Shown here piece by piece: positions 18,108 to 30,301 of a DNA stretch of 32,000 bases. The notes beneath the pieces were generated by a model that saw only the letters and a program-made list of their open reading frames with translations, searched no databases and was not told the DNA's origin. The translations under genes and the position numbers were made by a program. Source of the DNA: Candidatus Omnitrophota bacterium (GTDB taxonomy: Bacteria; Omnitrophota; Gorgyraeia; Zapsychrales; JANLHA01); NCBI GenBank assembly GCA_963662715.1, contig OY759724.1, forward strand, positions 900,001-932,000, in the 5' to 3' direction. Within the stretch, counting starts at the first letter, position 1. Each line of letters begins with the position of its first letter.

Positions 18108-18209
18108 CCTTCCCTCACACTCCCTTGCGGGTCGGTTGTCTTTCCGGTATCCGACGCTTTCTCAAATAACAAAAAAATAAGCCGACGAGAGGAGTTGAAC
18201 CTCCGACCC
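18108..18209 (-). repeat. Copy A of a ~101-bp direct repeat (tRNA-Thr 3' 29 nt plus 72 nt of downstream flank)
   Basis: 18108-18209 matches 18289-18389 apart from one extra T (gtcggttgtc versus gtcggtgtc). Confidence 0.9.
18181..18209 (-). pseudogene. Orphan 3' fragment (T-arm plus acceptor 3' strand) of tRNA-Thr
   Basis: gccgacgagaggagttgaacctccgaccc is identical to 18361-18389 of the intact gene. No matching 5' acceptor strand (GCCGACG) lies upstream of it. Confidence 0.8.
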
Positions 18210-18270
18210 CTCGCTTGCGCTCCCCATAGGGCTGCGCCCTCTGGCGCTCCGGCTCCGCCTCGCTGTCACC

Positions 18271-18299
18271 CTAAAAGCGTGAGGGAATCCTTCCCTCAC
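18271..18299 (-). terminator. Hairpin plus T-run downstream of tRNA-Thr
   Basis: The minus strand reads gtgagggaa-gga-ttccctcac (9-bp stem) followed by gcTTTTag. One arm lies in repeat copy B and the other in the unique spacer. Confidence 0.45.
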
Positions 18300-18359
18300 A
18301 CTCCCTTGCGGGTCGGTGTCTTTCCGGTATCCGACGCTTTCTCAAATAACAAAAAAATA

Positions 18360-18433
18360 AGCCGACGAGAGGAGTTGAACCTCCGACCCGCTCATTACGA
18401 ATGAGCTGCTCTACCGGGCTGAGCTACGTCGGC
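18360..18433 (-). tRNA. tRNA-Thr (CGU)
   Basis: The reverse complement GCCGACGTAGCTCAGCCCGGTAGAGCAGCTCATTCGTAATGAGCGGGTCGGAGGTTCAACTCCTCTCGTCGGCT folds as a cloverleaf. The anticodon loop is TTCGTAA and no CCA is encoded. Confidence 0.9.
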
Positions 18434-24806: not shown

Positions 24807-25208
24807 TTACTGGTAGAGCGCTCTCTCTATCTTGACATACACATCCTGGGCCACCCGGATGCGCGGCAAAAAAGCTTTCCGCGCTTTAACGCTCACTTGC
24901 ACCATAGAAGAAGAGACATTGAAGAGAGTTATGGTCACCTTTGTGCCCTGAATCTTCGCAATAATGATCCCTTCGGCTTCGTTCTGCTCCTCAATAATCC
25001 CCATCACAGCGACAACGTCCAAAACAATATCCCAAACTTCCATAAAATCTCCGCTCAAGACGCCTTCAACCGTATCAGGGCTGACAACATAACCGCCTAA
25101 GGCGCCCACGCCACCCACAACCAGATAAATACAGCCGTTTAATGAAAGAGTTAAAATACACAAGAGTATTCCGGGAATTGTCCTTTTCCTCCAGAATTCA
25201 AAACGCAT
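24807..25208 (-). CDS. Small lipoprotein (DUF3568-like)
   Basis: The track start at 25214 is a GTG. The ATG at 25208 follows GGAGGtgata. It has lipobox LTLSLNGC and a ~130-aa size. The DUF3568 resemblance is from memory. Confidence 0.6.
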   Translation of the reverse strand: MRFEFWRKRTIPGILLCILTLSLNGCIYLVVGGVGALGGYVVSPDTVEGVLSGDFMEVWDIVLDVVAVMGIIEEQNEAEGIIIAKIQGTKVTITLFNVSSSMVQVSVKARKAFLPRIRVAQDVYVKIERALYQ

Positions 25209-25230
25209 TATCACCTCCCTTCCTCAATTC

Positions 25231-26165
25231 CGATACAGCCCAACGGGCCTTCCTTCAAATATCTCTTATTCCTGAAGCCCGGAAATAACGAACGGCAATC
25301 CCGGGCAGCGATGAACCGTATTCCGGAATGTGCCCGTCACCTCTGTTGCGATACAGCCCAACGGGCCTTCCTTCAAATATCTCTTATTCCTGAAGCCCGG
25401 AAATAACGAACGGCAATCCCGGGCAGCGATGAACCGTATTCCGGAATGTGCCCGTTACCTCTGTTGCGATACAGCCCAACGGGCCTTCCTTCAAATATCT
25501 CTATTCCTGAAGCCCGGAAATAACGAACGGCAATCCCGGGCAGCGATGAACCGTATTCCAGAATGTGCCCGTCACCTCTGTTGCGATACAGCCCAACGGG
25601 CCTTCCTTCAAATATCTCTATTCCTGAAGCCCGGAAATGACGAACGGCAATCCCGGGCAGCGATGAACCGTATTCCAGAATGTGCCCGTCACCTCTGTTG
25701 CGATACAGCCCAACGGGCCTTCCTTCAAATATCTCTTATTCCTGAAGCCCGGAAATAACGAACGGCAATCCCGGGCAGCGATGAACCGTATTCCGGAATG
25801 TGCCCGTTACCTCTGTTGCGATACAGCCCAACGGGCCTTCCTTCAAATATCTCTTATTCCTGAAGCCCGGAAATAACGAACGGCAATCCCGGGCAGCGAT
25901 GAACCGTATTCCGGAATGTGCCCGTTACCTCTGTTGCGATACAGCCCAACGGGCCTTCCTTCAAGTATCTCTATTCCTGAAGCCCGGAAATGACGAACGG
26001 TAATCCCGGGCAGCGATGAACCGTATTCCGGAATGTGCCCGTTACCTCTGTTGCGATACAGCCCAACGGGCCTTCCTTCAAATATCTCTATTCCTGAAGC
26101 CCGAAAATAACGAACGGCAATCCCGGGCAGCGATGAACCGTATTCCGGAATGTGCCCGTCACCTC
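25231..26165. repeat. Tandem array: 8 near-identical copies of a 117/118-bp unit
   Basis: Units start at 25231, 25349, 25467, 25584, 25701, 25819, 25937 and 26054; the last ends at 26165. The unit is cgatacagcccaacgggccttccttcaaatatctct(t)attcctgaagcccggaaataacgaacggcaatcccgggcagcgatgaaccgtattccggaatgtgcccgtcacctctgttg. Only scattered single-base or 1-nt indel differences separate the copies. Confidence 0.95.
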
Positions 26166-26206
26166 AATTCCGATGATGTTCCGATCCCGGCGCCAGAGCC
26201 GAAAAA

Positions 26207-28087
26207 TCACGAGGCCCGGGAAATAACAATCAATGCAATCAACAGCGGAATATAACCTAAAATCAAAAAAACAACACCGATAATATTCCAAATTTTTTGT
26301 TTGGCTTTCAATTCTTCTAAGGATTTATAATTCTTTGCCTTATATGCGATACTGTTGCCAAACTCCCCCAAGTAAAGCATAAGAGAAAGGGAAATAAAAG
26401 CAGCGACAATAAATCCTGTTAAACTTGTTGAGGCGACAATATTACAAAAACAAAAAATTAATAAGACAAGCGCAGCAGTCCCAATCCTTTTATGAAATAA
26501 CAGCCAAAACAAAGGGAGAGAAAAAGCTCCGAAATTAAATCCAGGTATTTCAGAGATCGGTTCTTTATCCATGGTTTTCCTTACTATTTCTTTTTTCCAT
26601 GCCAGCATAGAAATCACAACCGAGGCTGCCAAGGCTAATAAGAGATATAAGGGGCCCCAAATTAAAGCTTTCCATGGATACCCTCCATACGAACTTTTTA
26701 TTTCTATCATCAAATCATTAATAAGCATAAGAGATAAAATTAAAGGTAAAAGATATTTTACTGAAATATCCCAAAATCTTATTAAACGGAAATGGGAAGC
26801 GTGGGCGATATGCAATCTCATCTTTCTAGCCCTGAATAACCAGGCAACTAAAACACATTCCATGACCCCTACGATAACCAAACCATAATGTGTAATAAAA
26901 TGGTCTAAAATATCCACCCAGAATAAACCACCTTTAGATGCAAAAAGGATACTTCCGACAAAGCCAGAAAGGCACACGGCAGATACAACTTTCTTACGTG
27001 CAAAGTGAAACTTATCGATTACGGCAGAGCTAAAGGCTTCCACTAAAGATATCCCGCTGGATAACCCGGCAATAACCAAGGACATAAAAAATAATATACC
27101 GAAAAGACTAGAAAAAGCTGGCATCAAACTAATGGCTTTTGGATATGCAATAAAAGCCAGACCGATAGACTCTTGGACCACATCTGCCACCGGTTTATTC
27201 AAGGTTAAAGCCATATACCCCAAAGTACCGAACACAGCGAACCCGGCCATAAAAGAAAACAAACAATTTCCGATACTAATAACCAAGGCATCCTGAACAA
27301 TATCCGCCTTACGCGGCAGATAAGAAGCGTAAGTGATCATAATCCCGAAAGCCAAAGACAGGGTAAAGAATATCTGAGAGAAAGCATCGATCCAAATCTG
27401 TGGGGTGTTCAACAAAGAAAAATCGGGCTTAAGATAAACATCGAGTCCCAAATGTGCCCCCTTCAAATTAATACTCCAAACAATAAGAATAGTAATTAGA
27501 AAAAAAAGGACTGGCATAAAAAACTTATTTGCCCTCTCAATCCCTCTTTGCACACCAAAATACACAACAATCCAACAGATAAACCAAACGGAAAATAAAG
27601 CAAAAAGGATATTCGTACGAATATCTCCTAATTCTAAAGGCCCCGAACTAAGCTGAAGAAAATTATGGTAGAAAAAATGGTTGGGATCGGCCCCCCAGGA
27701 AAGCTTTGCCGAAAAAAACACATAACTTAAACACCAGGCAATAATAACGGAATAGTACAACATAATGCCAAACATGGCACAATTAACAGCCCACCATCCG
27801 CACCATTCCCATTTTTTATTTACCTGGGCAAAACTCATAGGGGCGGCCCCGCGCATCTTGTGCCCGAACCCGAGTTCCAGGATCATTAAAGGAATTCCAA
27901 CTATAAAGAGGGCAATTATATAAGGGATAAGAAAAGCGCCGCCGCCGTTTTTATAGCAGAGGTAGGAAAAACGCCAGATGTTTCCCAACCCGACCGCCGA
28001 ACCTAAAGCTGCGAGGATAAAGCCCATACGCGTACGCCACTGAGCACGGGGGGAATGCGGTTTGCTGAGCTGGTATTTTTCTGACAT
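26207..28087 (-). CDS. Neurotransmitter:sodium symporter (SNF/NSS) family transporter with a C-terminal membrane extension
   Basis: 626 aa. WRTRMGFILAALGSAVGLGNIWRFSYLCYKNGGGAFLIPY is the NSS signature. The C-terminal ~130 aa (FNFGAFSLPLFWLLFHKRIG...) look DUF2628-like. Confidence 0.88.
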   Translation of the reverse strand: MSEKYQLSKPHSPRAQWRTRMGFILAALGSAVGLGNIWRFSYLCYKNGGGAFLIPYIIALFIVGIPLMILELGFGHKMRGAAPMSFAQVNKKWEWCGWWAVNCAMFGIMLYYSVIIAWCLSYVFFSAKLSWGADPNHFFYHNFLQLSSGPLELGDIRTNILFALFSVWFICWIVVYFGVQRGIERANKFFMPVLFFLITILIVWSINLKGAHLGLDVYLKPDFSLLNTPQIWIDAFSQIFFTLSLAFGIMITYASYLPRKADIVQDALVISIGNCLFSFMAGFAVFGTLGYMALTLNKPVADVVQESIGLAFIAYPKAISLMPAFSSLFGILFFMSLVIAGLSSGISLVEAFSSAVIDKFHFARKKVVSAVCLSGFVGSILFASKGGLFWVDILDHFITHYGLVIVGVMECVLVAWLFRARKMRLHIAHASHFRLIRFWDISVKYLLPLILSLMLINDLMIEIKSSYGGYPWKALIWGPLYLLLALAASVVISMLAWKKEIVRKTMDKEPISEIPGFNFGAFSLPLFWLLFHKRIGTAALVLLIFCFCNIVASTSLTGFIVAAFISLSLMLYLGEFGNSIAYKAKNYKSLEELKAKQKIWNIIGVVFLILGYIPLLIALIVISRAS

Positions 28088-28130: not shown

Positions 28131-28164
28131 AGGATGTATGTGCGGGTACCCGCACATACATCCT
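28131..28164. terminator. 34-bp perfect palindrome between the hppA stop and the SNF start (hairpin, possible terminator or operator)
   Basis: AGGATGTATGTGCGGGT|ACCCGCACATACATCCT. The T-run (ctttcttttttat) follows it on the plus strand only. On the gene-bearing minus strand it is followed by the moderately T-rich ttaacttgatcttctgtttc. Confidence 0.4.
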
Positions 28165-28204: not shown

Positions 28205-30301
28205 TTATTTAAAAATAGCATTCTGAATAATAAAAGCAGCAAAAACGATCGCGACCATGGACATCAATTTGATTAAAATATTGATGCTCGGTCCTGAAGT
28301 GTCTTTAAAAGGATCTCCCACCGTGTCTCCGACAACCGTCGCTTTGTGGCCGGTAGAGCCTTTCCCGCCTAAGTGGCCTTCTTCGATATATTTTTTGGCA
28401 TTGTCCCAGGCCCCTCCGGCGTTGGCCATCATAATGGCCAAAACAAATCCGGAAGCCGTGGCGCCGATGAGAAGCCCGCCAAGGCTGTTAATCCCTAAAA
28501 GAAGCCCCAAGGCAATTGGCGTTAACACCGCCAGCATGGCCGGCAAACGCATTTCTTTCAAGGCTGCGGTCGTGACAATGTCCACGCATCGGGCATAATC
28601 CGGTTTCGCCTTTTTCTCCATTAAGCCGGGAATTTCCTTAAACTGCCTGCGGACTTCAACGACCACCAAGCCGCCGGCGCGGCCGACAGCGCTCATCGTC
28701 AGGGAAGAGAAAATATACGGCATGGTCGTCCCGACAAAAACACCGATCAAAACCGTCGGGTCCATCAGATTAAGGTCCAAAGCCCCGCCTTCCAGGACAA
28801 CTTTCTCTTTAAAAGCGGCAATCAGGGCCAAAGCCGTCAAAGCCGCTGATCCGATGGCAAACCCTTTACCCGTTGCAGCGGTTGTGTTCCCCAAAGAATC
28901 AAGGGCATCGGTTTTCACGCGGACCGACGGGTCAAGCCCGGCCATTTCCGCGTTCCCGCCCGCATTATCCGCCACCGGGCCGTAAGCGTCTGTGGCCAGG
29001 GTAATGCCCAGAGTACTCAACATACCGACAGCGGCGATACCGATACCGTACAGCCCGAGCGTAAAATTATTAAACCCGCCGGAGCAGGCAAAACTGGCCA
29101 TGATCGCAACGCTGATGATAATAATCGGGAACCCGGTCGAAATCATGCCGACAGATAACCCTTCAATAATGACAGTTGCCGGACCGGTTGATGACGCTTC
29201 GGCAATTCTTTTTGTCGGGTTATAATGAGATGAAGTAAAATATTCCGTAGAAAATCCTATCAGCAGACCGGCCCCCAAGCCGATGATAACGGCAAAAGCA
29301 ATCCCCATATACTCGGCCCCTAACTGAAGGTAAATCAGGATAAACGCTAAGACCGCCACAATCACAGAGGCCGCGTAAACGCCTTTATGCAGCGCCTGCA
29401 ACAGCACTTTTTGAGAGGCGTCTTCACCTGTCTTAACAAAAGAAATTCCCAGCATGGACGAAAGAATACCAACGGCGGCCATGACCATCGGAACGGTCAC
29501 GCCGGCCACACCCAGTCCGGCGGCAACACCCAAAGCTCCGGTCGCGACAATAGAGCCGACGTAAGATTCGTATAAATCCGCCCCCATCCCGGCAACGTCA
29601 CCCACGTTGTCCCCGACATTATCAGCAATAACCGCAGGGTTGCGCGGATCATCCTCGGGAATTCCGGCTTCAACTTTCCCGACCAAATCCGCCCCGACAT
29701 CAGCGGCTTTGGTGAATATCCCGCCGCCCACACGGGCAAAAAGGGCCTGAAAACTGGCGCCCATCCCAAAGGTCAGCATTGTGCTGGTGATCGCCGTGAT
29801 TTTGTCCATACCTTCCGGTAAGGTATAATGGGTATAAAACCAGTCCAGACTTAAGTACCAGCAGAAAAGGTCCAGCAACCCCAAACCGACAACCGTAAAC
29901 CCCATAACAGCCCCGGAAGAGAACGCGACCTTTAATCCGCCGTTTAAGCTTGAACGGCAGGCATTGGCCGTACGGGCCGAAGCCGCTGTGGCGATCGTCA
30001 TTCCGCAAAAGCCGGCCAGGGCGGAAAACATCCCCCCCGTTAAAAAAGCGAAAGGCACAAAAATCGCCAGATATCCCCGGAAGGCCAGAAAAAGGAGAAT
30101 AACAAAAATGACGGAGAAAAATTTCCCGACAGCCACAAATTGTCTTCTCAAATATGCCCCTGCCCCTTCCCGGACTGCGGACGCAATCTCTTTCATTTCA
30201 CTCGTACCTTCGTCTTCTTGATAAATTTTTTTGGTCAGGTAAAGACCATAGACCAATGCTCCTATCGATCCGAGCGGGACCAGGAAAAACAAATTGAACA
30301 T
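28205..30301 (-). CDS. hppA: Membrane-integral K+/H+(Na+)-translocating inorganic pyrophosphatase
   Basis: 698 aa, polytopic. Motifs [30 protein letters not shown] and [15 protein letters not shown] are diagnostic of M-PPases. Confidence 0.95.

What the first reader, a model, noticed from the sequence alone, without database searches (positions are those of the whole stretch)
25231..26165. Eight-copy, ~118-bp near-perfect tandem array between the SNF transporter and a lipoprotein gene
Seen: there are eight head-to-tail units of 118, 118, 117, 117, 118, 118, 117 and ~112 nt, differing only by scattered substitutions (gtcac/gttac, ccggaat/ccagaat, aataacg/aatgacg, caaatat/caagtat, cggcaat/cggtaat) and one 1-nt indel. 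The entire unit is repeated, so there are no unique spacers and it is not CRISPR-like. Each unit has a 10-bp palindrome ATTCCGGAAT (broken to ATTCCAGAAT in units 3 and 4) and several short GC stems (gcccgg...ccgggc, agccc-aac-gggcc, cttca...tgaag). The 13-mer cctcaattccgat brackets the array (25222-25234 and 26162-26174). By eye, the unit looks like an amplified copy of the ancestral intergenic region. Read on the minus strand it contains a decayed copy of the SNF 3' end: GHIP...RAS then stop, versus the real GYIPLLIALIVISRAS-stop, with matching blocks cggaatRtRMcc, gcaatc and ggaaataac. It also ends in aGAGGTGAc, which resembles the lipoprotein SD GGAGGTGAta. The high identity implies recent or ongoing amplification. 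It could act as a copy-number-variable spacer or regulator, a multi-site protein-binding array, or repeated structured RNA in a read-through transcript.
Basis: seen in the sequence. Interest (0 to 1): 0.65.

Follow-up and report, generated by a model that had tools for sequence, protein, structure and literature searches.

The report
Young intergenic 118-bp minisatellite array
Between a transporter gene and a small lipoprotein gene of an uncultured Omnitrophota bacterium, a 118-base non-coding stretch has recently been copied head-to-tail eight times; it is a real but fairly ordinary bacterial minisatellite, with no sign of an RNA gene, a mobile element or a protein-coding role.

Summary
Tandem Repeats Finder gives 25231-26165, period 117/118, 8.0 copies and 97% matches.

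The array lies on the sense strand between an SNF transporter gene (26207-28087) and a DUF3568 lipoprotein gene (24807-25208) in an Omnitrophota chromosome. Six syntenic relatives have the same gene pair 34-85 nt apart. None has the array, and none has the 117-residue DUF2628-like tail fused to this SNF gene. The array is therefore lineage-specific and young.

The unit matches no Rfam family. It has no promoter-like or terminator-like site, and its folding energy is no better than shuffled sequence. No other copy turned up in the window, the relatives, phages, plasmids or viral contigs, or in scans of 185,579 species genomes and the JGI metagenomes.

Best reading: a passive minisatellite seeded by 13-nt direct repeats and carried in a read-through SNF-lipoprotein transcript. 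It is a new member of a known kind, of low to moderate interest.

The parts
25222..26174 (-). Whole repeat: eight ~105-nt cores separated by seven inner 13-mers and bracketed by two identical outer 13-mers. The sense strand is the minus strand, the same as both flanking genes.
   Evidence: TRF (25231-26165, period 117, 8.0 copies, 97%); unit parsing; the repeat finder family D2.
26162..26174 (-). Upstream outer 13-mer (ATCGGAATTGAGG on the minus strand).
   Evidence: Exact match to 25222-25234. Differs from the inner junctions ATCGCAACAGAGG at 3 of 13 positions.
25222..25234 (-). Downstream outer 13-mer (ATCGGAATTGAGG). It lies just upstream of the lipoprotein Shine-Dalgarno sequence and amounts to a partial ninth unit.
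   Evidence: sequence.
26055..26161 (-). Unit 8 in plus-strand order (the first unit transcribed). It carries the private variant CCCGAAAAT and the 117-type indel.
25938..26054 (-). Unit 7 (117 nt), the most divergent unit, at 4-5 differences from the others.
25820..25937 (-). Unit 6 (118 nt), identical to units 2 and 5.
25702..25819 (-). Unit 5 (118 nt), identical to units 2 and 6.
25585..25701 (-). Unit 4 (117 nt); palindrome broken to ATTCCAGAAT.
25468..25584 (-). Unit 3 (117 nt); palindrome broken to ATTCCAGAAT.
25350..25467 (-). Unit 2 (118 nt).
25232..25349 (-). Unit 1 (118 nt), the last unit transcribed and the one adjacent to the lipoprotein gene.
26175..26206 (-). 32-nt unique spacer between the SNF stop codon and the upstream 13-mer. 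With one 13-mer and the 13-nt SD region, it would make a normal 58-nt spacer if the array were removed.
   Evidence: Sequence; array-less reconstruction; spacers of 34-85 nt in relatives.
26207..28087 (-). SNF (sodium:neurotransmitter symporter family) gene, 626 aa. Residues from about 510 to 626 (26207-26557) are a DUF2628-like C-terminal extension that homologues lack.
   Evidence: Pfam; homologues of 505-515 aa covering about 80% of the query; pairwise alignment.
25209..25219 (-). Shine-Dalgarno region GGGAGGTGATA of the lipoprotein gene, conserved in relative L001 (GGAAGGTGATA).
   Evidence: Sequences.
24807..25208 (-). DUF3568 lipoprotein-like gene (133 aa from the ATG), 74% identical to the syntenic gene of L001.
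25266..26081 (-). Seven copies of a 36-codon TTG-initiated mini-ORF (MKEGPLGCIATEVTGTFRNTVHRCPGLPFVISGLQE), one per unit junction. Listed for completeness; not supported as a gene.
   Evidence: No real homologues in 1.84 billion representatives. An SD-led ORF this long arises in 14% of shuffled units.

Best explanation
This is a young, lineage-specific, non-coding minisatellite (a VNTR-type tandem amplification) inside an ancestrally short SNF-lipoprotein intercistronic spacer.

How it arose (inferred from the anatomy):
- A ~105-nt core flanked by 13-nt direct repeats (ATCGGAATTGAGG) was duplicated, by slipped-strand mispairing or by unequal sister-chromatid exchange between those repeats.
- The inner junction acquired a three-base variant (CAACAG in place of GAATTG). 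That variant was then propagated as inner units were re-amplified, while the two outermost 13-mers kept the original sequence, the usual array-edge effect.
- The pattern of the shared 1-nt deletion (118, 118, 117, 117, then the same again) suggests that late steps copied blocks of two to four units.

How it acts (inferred):
- It has no promoter or terminator of its own, so it is carried passively on the read-through transcript from the SNF gene into the lipoprotein gene.
- It stretches the untranslated gap from roughly 60-180 nt to 998 nt.
- Any effect is therefore a copy-number-dependent change, most likely a reduction or uncoupling, in expression of the downstream DUF3568 lipoprotein. It is not a sequence-specific function.
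For: Shown:
- The array is real in the sequence, and its units are near-identical.
- The variants are six transitions plus one indel site, with no pattern that needs selection to explain it.
- Identical 13-mers lie at both ends, and a 10-of-13 variant sits at all seven inner junctions. This means the 13-mer belongs to the unit and is not a target-site duplication.
- Removing the array leaves a 58-nt spacer, within the 34-85 nt range seen in six syntenic relatives that have SNF followed directly by the lipoprotein gene, with no array.
- The Shine-Dalgarno region and start codon of the lipoprotein gene are intact and conserved with L001.
- No sigma-70-like promoter or intrinsic-terminator-like site falls within the array on either strand.
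- No Rfam family matches. The best hit is CsrB at 9 bits against a gathering score of 71, E 6.3.
- RNA folding is no better than shuffles: z -1.2 and -1.7 for one unit, and -0.7 for three units plus the lipoprotein start.
- The unit has no other copy in the 32-kb window or in 35 fetched loci. Nothing matches in phage or plasmid collections or viral contigs.
- Scans of GTDB species genomes and JGI metagenomes gave only chance 19-mer hits.
- The lineage shows other near-perfect long-period tandem duplications, at tRNA-Thr.
Against: - No reads or transcript data are available, so copy number, co-transcription and any effect on the lipoprotein gene are all inferred.
- The sigma-70 and terminator scans are simple consensus matches, and Omnitrophota promoters are uncharacterised.
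- The unit's origin is unresolved. It is richer in G+C (0.53) than everything around it (0.35-0.47), and it resembles its flanks only weakly.
- Three clustered changes in the inner 13-mer need an extra step: a complex mutation followed by homogenisation.
- Only one 19-mer was scanned against the large genome and metagenome collections, and the source genome itself is not searchable. Dispersed copies elsewhere in this genome therefore cannot be excluded.
- Near-identity of the units means a real function would leave no covariation or selection signal to detect.
Confidence: 0.6

Rival explanations
1. Repeated functional RNA. Each unit folds into a module within the SNF-lipoprotein transcript, or is processed out of it. 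The array acts as a multi-site sponge or scaffold for an RNA-binding protein (for example a CsrA-like protein binding GGA motifs), or as a cis-regulator of lipoprotein translation.
For: - The array lies on the sense strand of a probable operon and has no terminator, so it is probably transcribed.
- Each unit has about four GGA motifs and several short GC stems (AACGGGC/GCCCGTT, GCCCGG/CCGGGC).
- The only Rfam hits, although far below threshold, were to CsrB.
- Four of the five substitutions that fall in predicted pairs keep a pair or a wobble (my reading of the structure).
Against: - Folding energies are not distinguishable from shuffles (z -0.7 to -1.7).
- The CsrB hits score 9 bits against a 71-bit threshold, E 6.3.
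- Four GGA motifs per 118 nt is close to the ~2 expected from composition.
- About half of random transitions at paired sites keep pairing, so 4 of 5 is not significant.
- No homologous sequence exists in which to test covariation.
Confidence: 0.12
2. DNA-level protein-binding array. The 10-bp palindrome ATTCCGGAAT, repeated every 117-118 bp, recruits a dimeric DNA-binding protein, giving a cooperative nucleoprotein structure that regulates the flanking genes or local chromosome organisation.
For: A perfect 10-bp palindrome is present in six of the eight units.
Against: - A 10-bp perfect palindrome somewhere in a 118-nt unit is expected by chance about one time in ten (my calculation).
- Two units already carry a broken site.
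- The same TTCCGGAAT string occurs inside the lipoprotein coding region of this window and of L001, where it encodes the signal-peptide residues.
- No regulator gene is associated with the array, and the neighbourhood is conserved housekeeping synteny.
- A spacing of 117-118 bp is not a whole number of helical turns.
Confidence: 0.07
3. Array of translated mini-ORFs. Each unit junction encodes a 36-residue (or 31-residue) peptide led by the SD-like GAAGGAAGG, giving either a multi-copy micropeptide locus or a MIRU-like translated relay. The last, truncated copy stops at a TGA two bases before the lipoprotein ATG, which could couple translation of the lipoprotein gene.
For: - Seven intact copies lie on the sense strand.
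- Three of the five substitutions inside the ORF are synonymous third-position changes.
- The only indel falls on the stop codon and turns TAA into TAG.
- The last copy ends in AGGTGAtaATG.
Against: - The copies are not independent evidence, because the units are near-identical.
- An SD-led ORF of at least 31 codons appears in 14% of dinucleotide-shuffled units.
- Three of five changes at third positions has p of about 0.2.
- There is no Pfam hit. The four hits among 1.84 billion representatives are unrelated low-complexity repeat proteins.
- The start codon is TTG.
- The terminal TGA is part of the ancestral SD-start spacing and is also present in L001.
Confidence: 0.07
4. Assembly artefact. 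The true locus has one copy or a different number of copies, and the eight-copy layout results from mis-assembly or consensus errors.
For: - Tandem repeats of about 1 kb with identical units (2 = 5 = 6) are a classic source of assembly error.
- The 1-nt indel lies in a TT/T run.
- No reads are available to me.
Against: - The source contig is 3.36 Mb, which implies long reads that would span 1 kb.
- Units carry distinct, non-periodic private variants, unlike a collapsed or artificially expanded consensus.
- Both junctions with unique sequence are clean, and the flanking genes are intact.
Confidence: 0.07
5. Multimerised small mobile element. The ~105-nt core is a MITE-like or other non-autonomous element that inserted into the spacer with a 13-bp target duplication and then multimerised. 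Other copies would exist elsewhere in the genome.
For: - Identical 13-mers bracket the array.
- The core has a 7-bp inverted repeat near its ends (AACGGGC...GCCCGTT).
- Its G+C differs from its surroundings.
- An exact 19-mer of the unit recurs in five contigs of one unrelated MAG, inside a ~100-nt palindromic intergenic element.
Against: - The inner junctions match the outer 13-mer at 10 of 13 positions (chance about 1e-4), so the 13-mer is part of the unit and not a target duplication.
- A 7-bp inverted repeat in 118 nt is expected by chance about 40% of the time.
- No second copy exists in the window or in any fetched locus.
- Beyond the 19-mer, the MAG element is no more similar to the unit than shuffles are (z 0.4-1.4).
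- No transposase or integrase gene lies nearby.
Confidence: 0.06

Closest known systems
Bacterial intergenic minisatellites / VNTR loci, in particular mycobacterial interspersed repetitive units (MIRUs; Supply et al. 1997, as summarised in PMC3184786; the senX3-regX3 example in PMC4213456)
   Same: - Head-to-tail non-coding units of tens to about 100 bp, lying between two co-directional genes of a probable operon.
- Transcribed with the flanking genes.
- Absent from the homologous site in relatives.
- Short direct repeats at the borders and internal GC-rich inverted repeats.
- Small ORFs whose ends abut the neighbouring genes.
- Copy number expected to vary.
   Different: - MIRUs are a dispersed family, repeated about 40-50 times in the genome, with 40-100 bp units and usually 1-5 copies per locus. 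They are restricted to mycobacteria, and the senX3-regX3 copies have reported promoter activity.
- Here a single locus is known, the unit is 118 bp in eight copies, and there is no sequence similarity to MIRUs.
- The organism is an Omnitrophota bacterium.
- Dispersal and promoter activity are untested or not seen.
NsiR1-type tandem sRNA gene arrays of heterocystous cyanobacteria (PMC4030482; Ionescu et al. 2010, cited therein)
   Same: An intergenic tandem array of direct repeats with about a dozen near-identical units next to a protein-coding gene.
   Different: - Each nsiR1 unit carries its own promoter and yields a 60-nt sRNA, and the array is conserved across all heterocystous cyanobacteria.
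- Here no promoter-like or terminator-like site occurs in any unit, and no relative has the array.
CsrB/RsmZ-type protein-sponge RNAs (Rfam RF00018, clan CL00106)
   Same: A repetitive RNA with several GGA motifs per repeat. These families gave the only (sub-threshold) Rfam hits.
   Different: - The hits score 9.2 bits against a gathering score of 71.
- The GGA density is near chance.
- The units are 118 nt rather than short hairpins.
- There is no independent promoter or terminator.
CRISPR arrays
   Same: Regularly spaced repeats in an intergenic region.
   Different: The whole 118-nt period is repeated, with no unique spacers. No cas genes lie in the window.

Membership tests
Bacterial minisatellite / VNTR (generic) | Head-to-tail direct repeats with a unit of about 10-150 bp and high inter-unit identity | tested here: met
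   TRF: period 117/118, 8.0 copies, 97% matches; 0-5 pairwise differences between units.
Bacterial minisatellite / VNTR (generic) | Copy number varies between strains or within the population | not testable with these tools
   No reads are available, and no relative closer than 72% amino-acid identity exists in the collections. Six more distant relatives have zero copies.
Bacterial minisatellite / VNTR (generic) | Non-coding (for the intergenic class) | tested here: met
   - Units of 118 nt shift the reading frame, and no long ORF runs through the array on the sense strand.
- The longest ORF is a 142-aa antisense ORF across the two 117-nt units, with no Pfam family above the gathering score.
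- The mini-ORF has no homologues.
MIRU (mycobacterial interspersed repetitive units) | Dispersed at about 40-50 loci in the genome | tested here: inconclusive
   There is no second copy in the 32-kb window, but the rest of the 3.36-Mb genome is not available.
MIRU (mycobacterial interspersed repetitive units) | Sequence similarity to MIRU classes I-III; mycobacterial host | tested here: not met
   - The host is an Omnitrophota bacterium (names of homologues).
- The 19-mer scan hit a Mycobacterium and a Rhodococcus genome, but only over the 19-mer itself.
- No direct alignment to MIRU consensus sequences was run.
MIRU (mycobacterial interspersed repetitive units) | Located between genes of an operon, in the sense orientation, with small ORFs abutting the flanking genes | tested here: met
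   - The flanking genes are co-directional and lie 34-85 nt apart in relatives.
- Sense-strand mini-ORFs are present, and the last one stops 2 nt before the lipoprotein ATG.
- Whether they are translated is unknown.
Tandem sRNA gene array (NsiR1 type) | Each unit has its own promoter and terminator | tested here: not met
   No sigma-70-like promoter or intrinsic-terminator-like site lies within 25222-26174 on either strand. This is a consensus scan only, and other promoter types are not covered.
Tandem sRNA gene array (NsiR1 type) | Array conserved in related genomes | tested here: not met
   It is absent from six syntenic loci and from the genome and metagenome scans.
Any Rfam family (structured RNA) | Covariance-model score at or above the gathering threshold | tested here: not met
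   No hit in the array at the gathering threshold. The best hit at E up to 10 is CsrB at 9.2 bits against 71.
MITE / dispersed small repeat (REP, BIME, Correia-like) | Terminal inverted repeats plus a target-site duplication unrelated to the element | tested here: not met
   The bracketing 13-mer recurs in 10-of-13 form at every inner junction, so it belongs to the unit. The only inverted repeat near the ends is 7 bp, which is within chance.
MITE / dispersed small repeat (REP, BIME, Correia-like) | Multiple dispersed copies | tested here: inconclusive
   None was found in the window, the relatives or the public collections, but the source genome could not be searched.
CRISPR | Short repeats alternating with unique spacers | tested here: not met
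   The entire period is repeated.

The most novel reading that the evidence does not exclude
The array is not passive. It may be a copy-number-variable intercistronic module whose sense-strand units are each translated (an SD-led 31-36-codon mini-ORF, with the last copy terminating 2 nt before the lipoprotein ATG), or whose units each bind a factor. Either way, repeat number would set the expression of the DUF3568 lipoprotein relative to the SNF transporter. That would be a MIRU-like translational relay or contingency locus in an uncultured Omnitrophota lineage, arisen independently of mycobacteria.
Probability: 0.1. Interest if true: 0.55.

Novelty: new member of a known kind. Interest (0 to 1): 0.25.

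Why it matters
As it stands, the array matters only modestly.
- It documents ongoing tandem amplification inside a conserved operon of an uncultured phylum.
- It offers a ready-made VNTR marker for telling strains of this Omnitrophota population apart in long-read metagenomes.
- It is a natural experiment in what happens when a ~60-nt intercistronic gap grows to 1 kb.

If copy number proved to tune expression of the downstream lipoprotein, it would be an independent, non-mycobacterial example of MIRU-like intercistronic repeats. Nothing found here suggests a new class of RNA, mobile element or defence system.

Tried and rejected
1. Known RNA family: Rfam gave nothing in the array at the gathering threshold or at E up to 10.
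2. Stable RNA structure: one unit on either strand, and three units plus the lipoprotein start, fold no better than shuffles.
3. Unit-borne promoters or terminators: none found. A quick sigma-54 consensus check found nothing better than 3-5 mismatches.
4. Dispersed repeat:
   - The invariant 19-mer CCCGGGCAGCGATGAACCG was scanned against GTDB species genomes (18 loci) and JGI metagenomes (11 loci). Every hit stops at the 19-mer.
   - Two other blocks gave no hit in viral contigs.
   - blastn against phages and plasmids gave no match.
   - An nhmmer profile of the eight units found nothing in the masked window or in the relatives.
5. The five-contig hit in MAG SRP141376_co4_309 looked like a related dispersed element. 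Outside the 19-mer, its alignment to the permuted unit is at shuffle level (z 0.4-1.4), and it has no Rfam hit. I treated it as a chance match to that genome's own repeat.
6. Origin from the ancestral spacer: not significant against L001 and borderline against the window's own flanks.
7. Exact-sequence look-ups of the window's own SNF and lipoprotein proteins found no other contig, so no second assembly of this locus was available for a copy-number comparison.
8. Homologues of the SNF C-terminal extension: none at E up to 0.001, and only a sub-threshold DUF2628 match. Its source, and any single-copy progenitor of the unit next to such a gene, could not be traced.
9. Mini-ORF as a gene: no Pfam hit, no credible homologues, and not unusual compared with shuffles.
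10. attC-like, iteron-like and G-quadruplex readings were considered by eye on the sequence and dropped for lack of the defining motifs.
Full report
**Observation**

Tandem Repeats Finder reports one array at 25231-26165 with period 117, 8.0 copies, 97% matches and score 1765. It also reports an alternative 470-nt period at 98%. Splitting on an invariant anchor gives units of 118, 118, 117, 117, 118, 118 and 117 nt plus a last unit.

The variants are six substitution sites, all transitions, and one single-base indel site shared by units 3, 4, 7 and 8. Units 2, 5 and 6 are identical, and no pair differs at more than five positions.

The palindrome ATTCCGGAAT is intact in six units and broken in units 3 and 4. 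The 13-mer CCTCAATTCCGAT occurs at 25222-25234 and 26162-26174. One extra detail: all seven inner junctions carry a 10-of-13 variant of that 13-mer (ATCGCAACAGAGG on the minus strand, against ATCGGAATTGAGG at both outer ends). The 13-mer is therefore part of the repeating unit, and the repeat as a whole spans 25222-26174.

**Setting**

All neighbouring genes are on the minus strand:
- H+-pyrophosphatase, 28205-30301.
- An SNF-family transporter, 26207-28087.
- The array.
- A 133-residue DUF3568 lipoprotein-like gene, 24807-25208, preceded by GGGAGGTGATA.
- tRNA-Phe.
- A TPR membrane protein.

The best homologues of the SNF protein are named Candidatus Omnitrophota/Omnitrophica, and the source contig is 3.36 Mb.

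I fetched six syntenic loci from relatives: L001, at 72% and 74% amino-acid identity for the two genes, and L020-L024. All have a 508-513-residue SNF gene followed by the lipoprotein gene after only 34-85 nt. None has a repeat there (TRF).

The window's SNF protein is also unusual. It is 626 residues long because a 117-residue tail with a sub-threshold DUF2628 match (21 bits against 23) is fused in frame. None of the roughly 120 best homologues has this tail.

Removing the array and keeping one 13-mer leaves a 58-nt spacer, which is within the normal range for this gene pair. The array is therefore a recent, lineage-specific addition to an ancestrally short intercistronic spacer.

**What the unit is not**

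- It matches no Rfam family. The best sub-threshold hit is CsrB at 9 bits against a 71-bit threshold.
- Its predicted RNA folding is indistinguishable from dinucleotide shuffles, on either strand and in multi-unit context (z -1.2, -1.7 and -0.7).
- No sigma-70-like promoter or intrinsic-terminator-like site falls inside it.
- It is not coding in any ordinary sense, because 118-nt units shift the frame.
- The sense strand has seven copies of a 36-codon TTG mini-ORF led by GAAGGAAGG. An SD-led ORF of that length appears in 14% of shuffled units. It has no Pfam match. A full HMMER pass over 1.84 billion representatives returned only four unrelated low-complexity repeat proteins.

**Copies elsewhere**

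I found none.
- The invariant 19-mer occurs only in the eight units within the window.
- An nhmmer profile of the units finds nothing in the masked window or in any fetched locus beyond those selected by the 19-mer itself.
- blastn against phage and plasmid collections gave no match, and two further blocks gave no hit in viral contigs.
- Exact scans of 185,579 species genomes and of the JGI metagenomes returned 18 and 11 loci, and in all of them similarity stops at the 19-mer.

Five of the genome hits fall in one MAG, inside a ~100-nt palindromic intergenic element. Outside the 19-mer, that element aligns to the permuted unit no better than shuffles (z 0.4-1.4), so I treat it as a coincidence. 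The limitation is that the source genome itself is not in any searchable collection, so dispersal within it remains untested.

**Origin**

The tests gave the following.
- Against the nearest relative's stop-spacer-start region, the alignment is at chance (391 of 1000 shuffles as good).
- Against the window's own flanks it is borderline. Local alignments give p of about 0.016-0.05.
- An in-register global alignment of the upstream flank gives z 3.5 at one chosen length and z 2.2-2.5 at three others. The downstream flank in register gives nothing.
- The G+C of the unit (0.53) differs sharply from that of the SNF tail it is supposed to derive from (0.35).

Some local resemblances are suggestive:
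- AGAGGTGAC against the Shine-Dalgarno GGAGGTGAT.
- GGGCACATTCCGGAATAC against GGACAATTCCCGGAATAC in the lipoprotein signal-peptide codons.
- GTTATTTCCGGGCTTC against GTTATTTCCCGGGCCTC at the SNF stop.

A local origin therefore remains possible but not demonstrated.

What the anatomy does show is the mode of growth. An eight-and-a-fraction-copy array ending in the same 13-mer at both ends is the signature of duplication between short direct repeats. The fact that only the inner junctions carry the CAACAG variant fits later re-amplification of inner units, with the edges left behind.

**Most likely mechanism**

I conclude, with confidence of about 0.6, that this is a passive minisatellite. It was generated by slippage or unequal exchange. 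It is carried on a read-through SNF-to-lipoprotein transcript, whose RNA is G-rich (C/G 0.71) and so a poor Rho substrate by composition. It acts, if at all, through its length and copy number on expression of the downstream lipoprotein gene.

The steps that are shown:
- The repeat structure.
- Its youth.
- Its absence in relatives.
- The absence of recognisable RNA, promoter, terminator or coding signals.

The steps that are inferred:
- Co-transcription.
- The slippage mechanism.
- Any effect on expression.

The rivals each have only anecdotal support and are listed with their refuting experiments. They are a functional repeated RNA or sponge, a palindrome-binding protein array, translated mini-ORFs, an assembly artefact and a multimerised mobile element.

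**Comparison with known systems**

The closest analogues are bacterial intergenic minisatellites, especially MIRUs. MIRUs are 40-100-bp units repeated about 40-50 times in mycobacterial genomes. Some sit tandemly between genes of an operon, are transcribed polycistronically, carry small ORFs that abut the flanking genes, and are absent from the homologous site in M. leprae (PMC3184786). The senX3-regX3 copies have promoter activity (PMC4213456).

This array works like one MIRU locus in its position, orientation and small-ORF arrangement. It is not a member of the family: the host and the unit length differ, and there is no evidence of dispersal.

Unlike NsiR1 arrays, in which each of 12 tandem copies has its own promoter and the array is conserved across heterocystous cyanobacteria (PMC4030482), these units have no promoter or terminator signal and no conservation.

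**Verdict**

The feature is real and correctly described, but of a known kind. It is a new, orphan minisatellite in an Omnitrophota operon. Interest is 0.25. The most novel reading still open is a copy-number-dependent translational or regulatory relay for the lipoprotein gene, with a probability of about 0.1.

Noticed in passing
window 18108-18433 (minus strand); L001 16493-16878; L020 8944-9536: A near-perfect long-period tandem repeat starts inside the 3' end of tRNA-Thr(CGU) and runs downstream.
- In the window, 18108-18209 is identical to 18289-18389 (period 180-181, about 1.6 copies). The second copy re-creates the last ~30 nt of the tRNA (GGGTCGGAGGTTCAACTCCTCTCGTCGGCTT).
- The same arrangement recurs in two relatives: L001 has period 185, 1.8 copies and 99% identity; L020 has period 161, at least 3.3 copies and 100% identity, and runs off the locus. 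L021 lacks it.
- The ~150 nt between the tRNA-end copies is partly conserved between the window and L001, and has only a weak sub-threshold Rfam hit (Clostridiales-2, 20 bits against 58.6).
- It could be an integration scar, a slippage hotspot or an unrecognised RNA with a tRNA-like 3' end.
   Followed up: partly
window 26207-26557 (minus strand): The SNF transporter gene is fused in frame to a 117-residue C-terminal extension with predicted membrane segments and a sub-threshold DUF2628 match (E 4.8e-4, 21 bits against a gathering score of 23).
- All of the roughly 120 best homologues end at 505-515 residues.
- The extension alone finds no homologue at E up to 0.001.
- Its G+C is 0.35, against 0.41 for the SNF core.
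- Together with the array, it forms about 1.3 kb of lineage-specific DNA between the SNF core and the lipoprotein gene.
   Followed up: partly
L005, L006, L010, L012, L018 (MAG 'SRP141376_co4_309', CAZYOC01 contigs): An unrelated MAG carries at least five dispersed intergenic copies of an element that starts with CCCGGGCAGCGATGAACCG. Three of them are ~100-nt palindromic units ending in GCTGCCCGGGGCAAAT, so they look MITE-like. The element has no Rfam match, and it shares only the 19-mer with the array unit.
   Followed up: partly
window 844-6868: A low-G+C block (0.36-0.39, against 0.455 for the window) lies next to tRNA-Met (6792-6868). It encodes NUDIX, dCTP-deaminase-like, Schlafen-type helicase fused to an S24 peptidase domain, and MazG-like proteins. 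This gene set is reminiscent of nucleotide-depletion anti-phage defence islands or an integrated element.
   Followed up: no
window 28131-28164: A perfect 34-nt palindrome (AGGATGTATGTGCGGGTACCCGCACATACATCCT; 15-bp stem, 4-nt loop) lies in the 117-nt gap between the H+-pyrophosphatase and SNF genes. The scan flagged it as terminator-like on the plus strand only.
   Followed up: no
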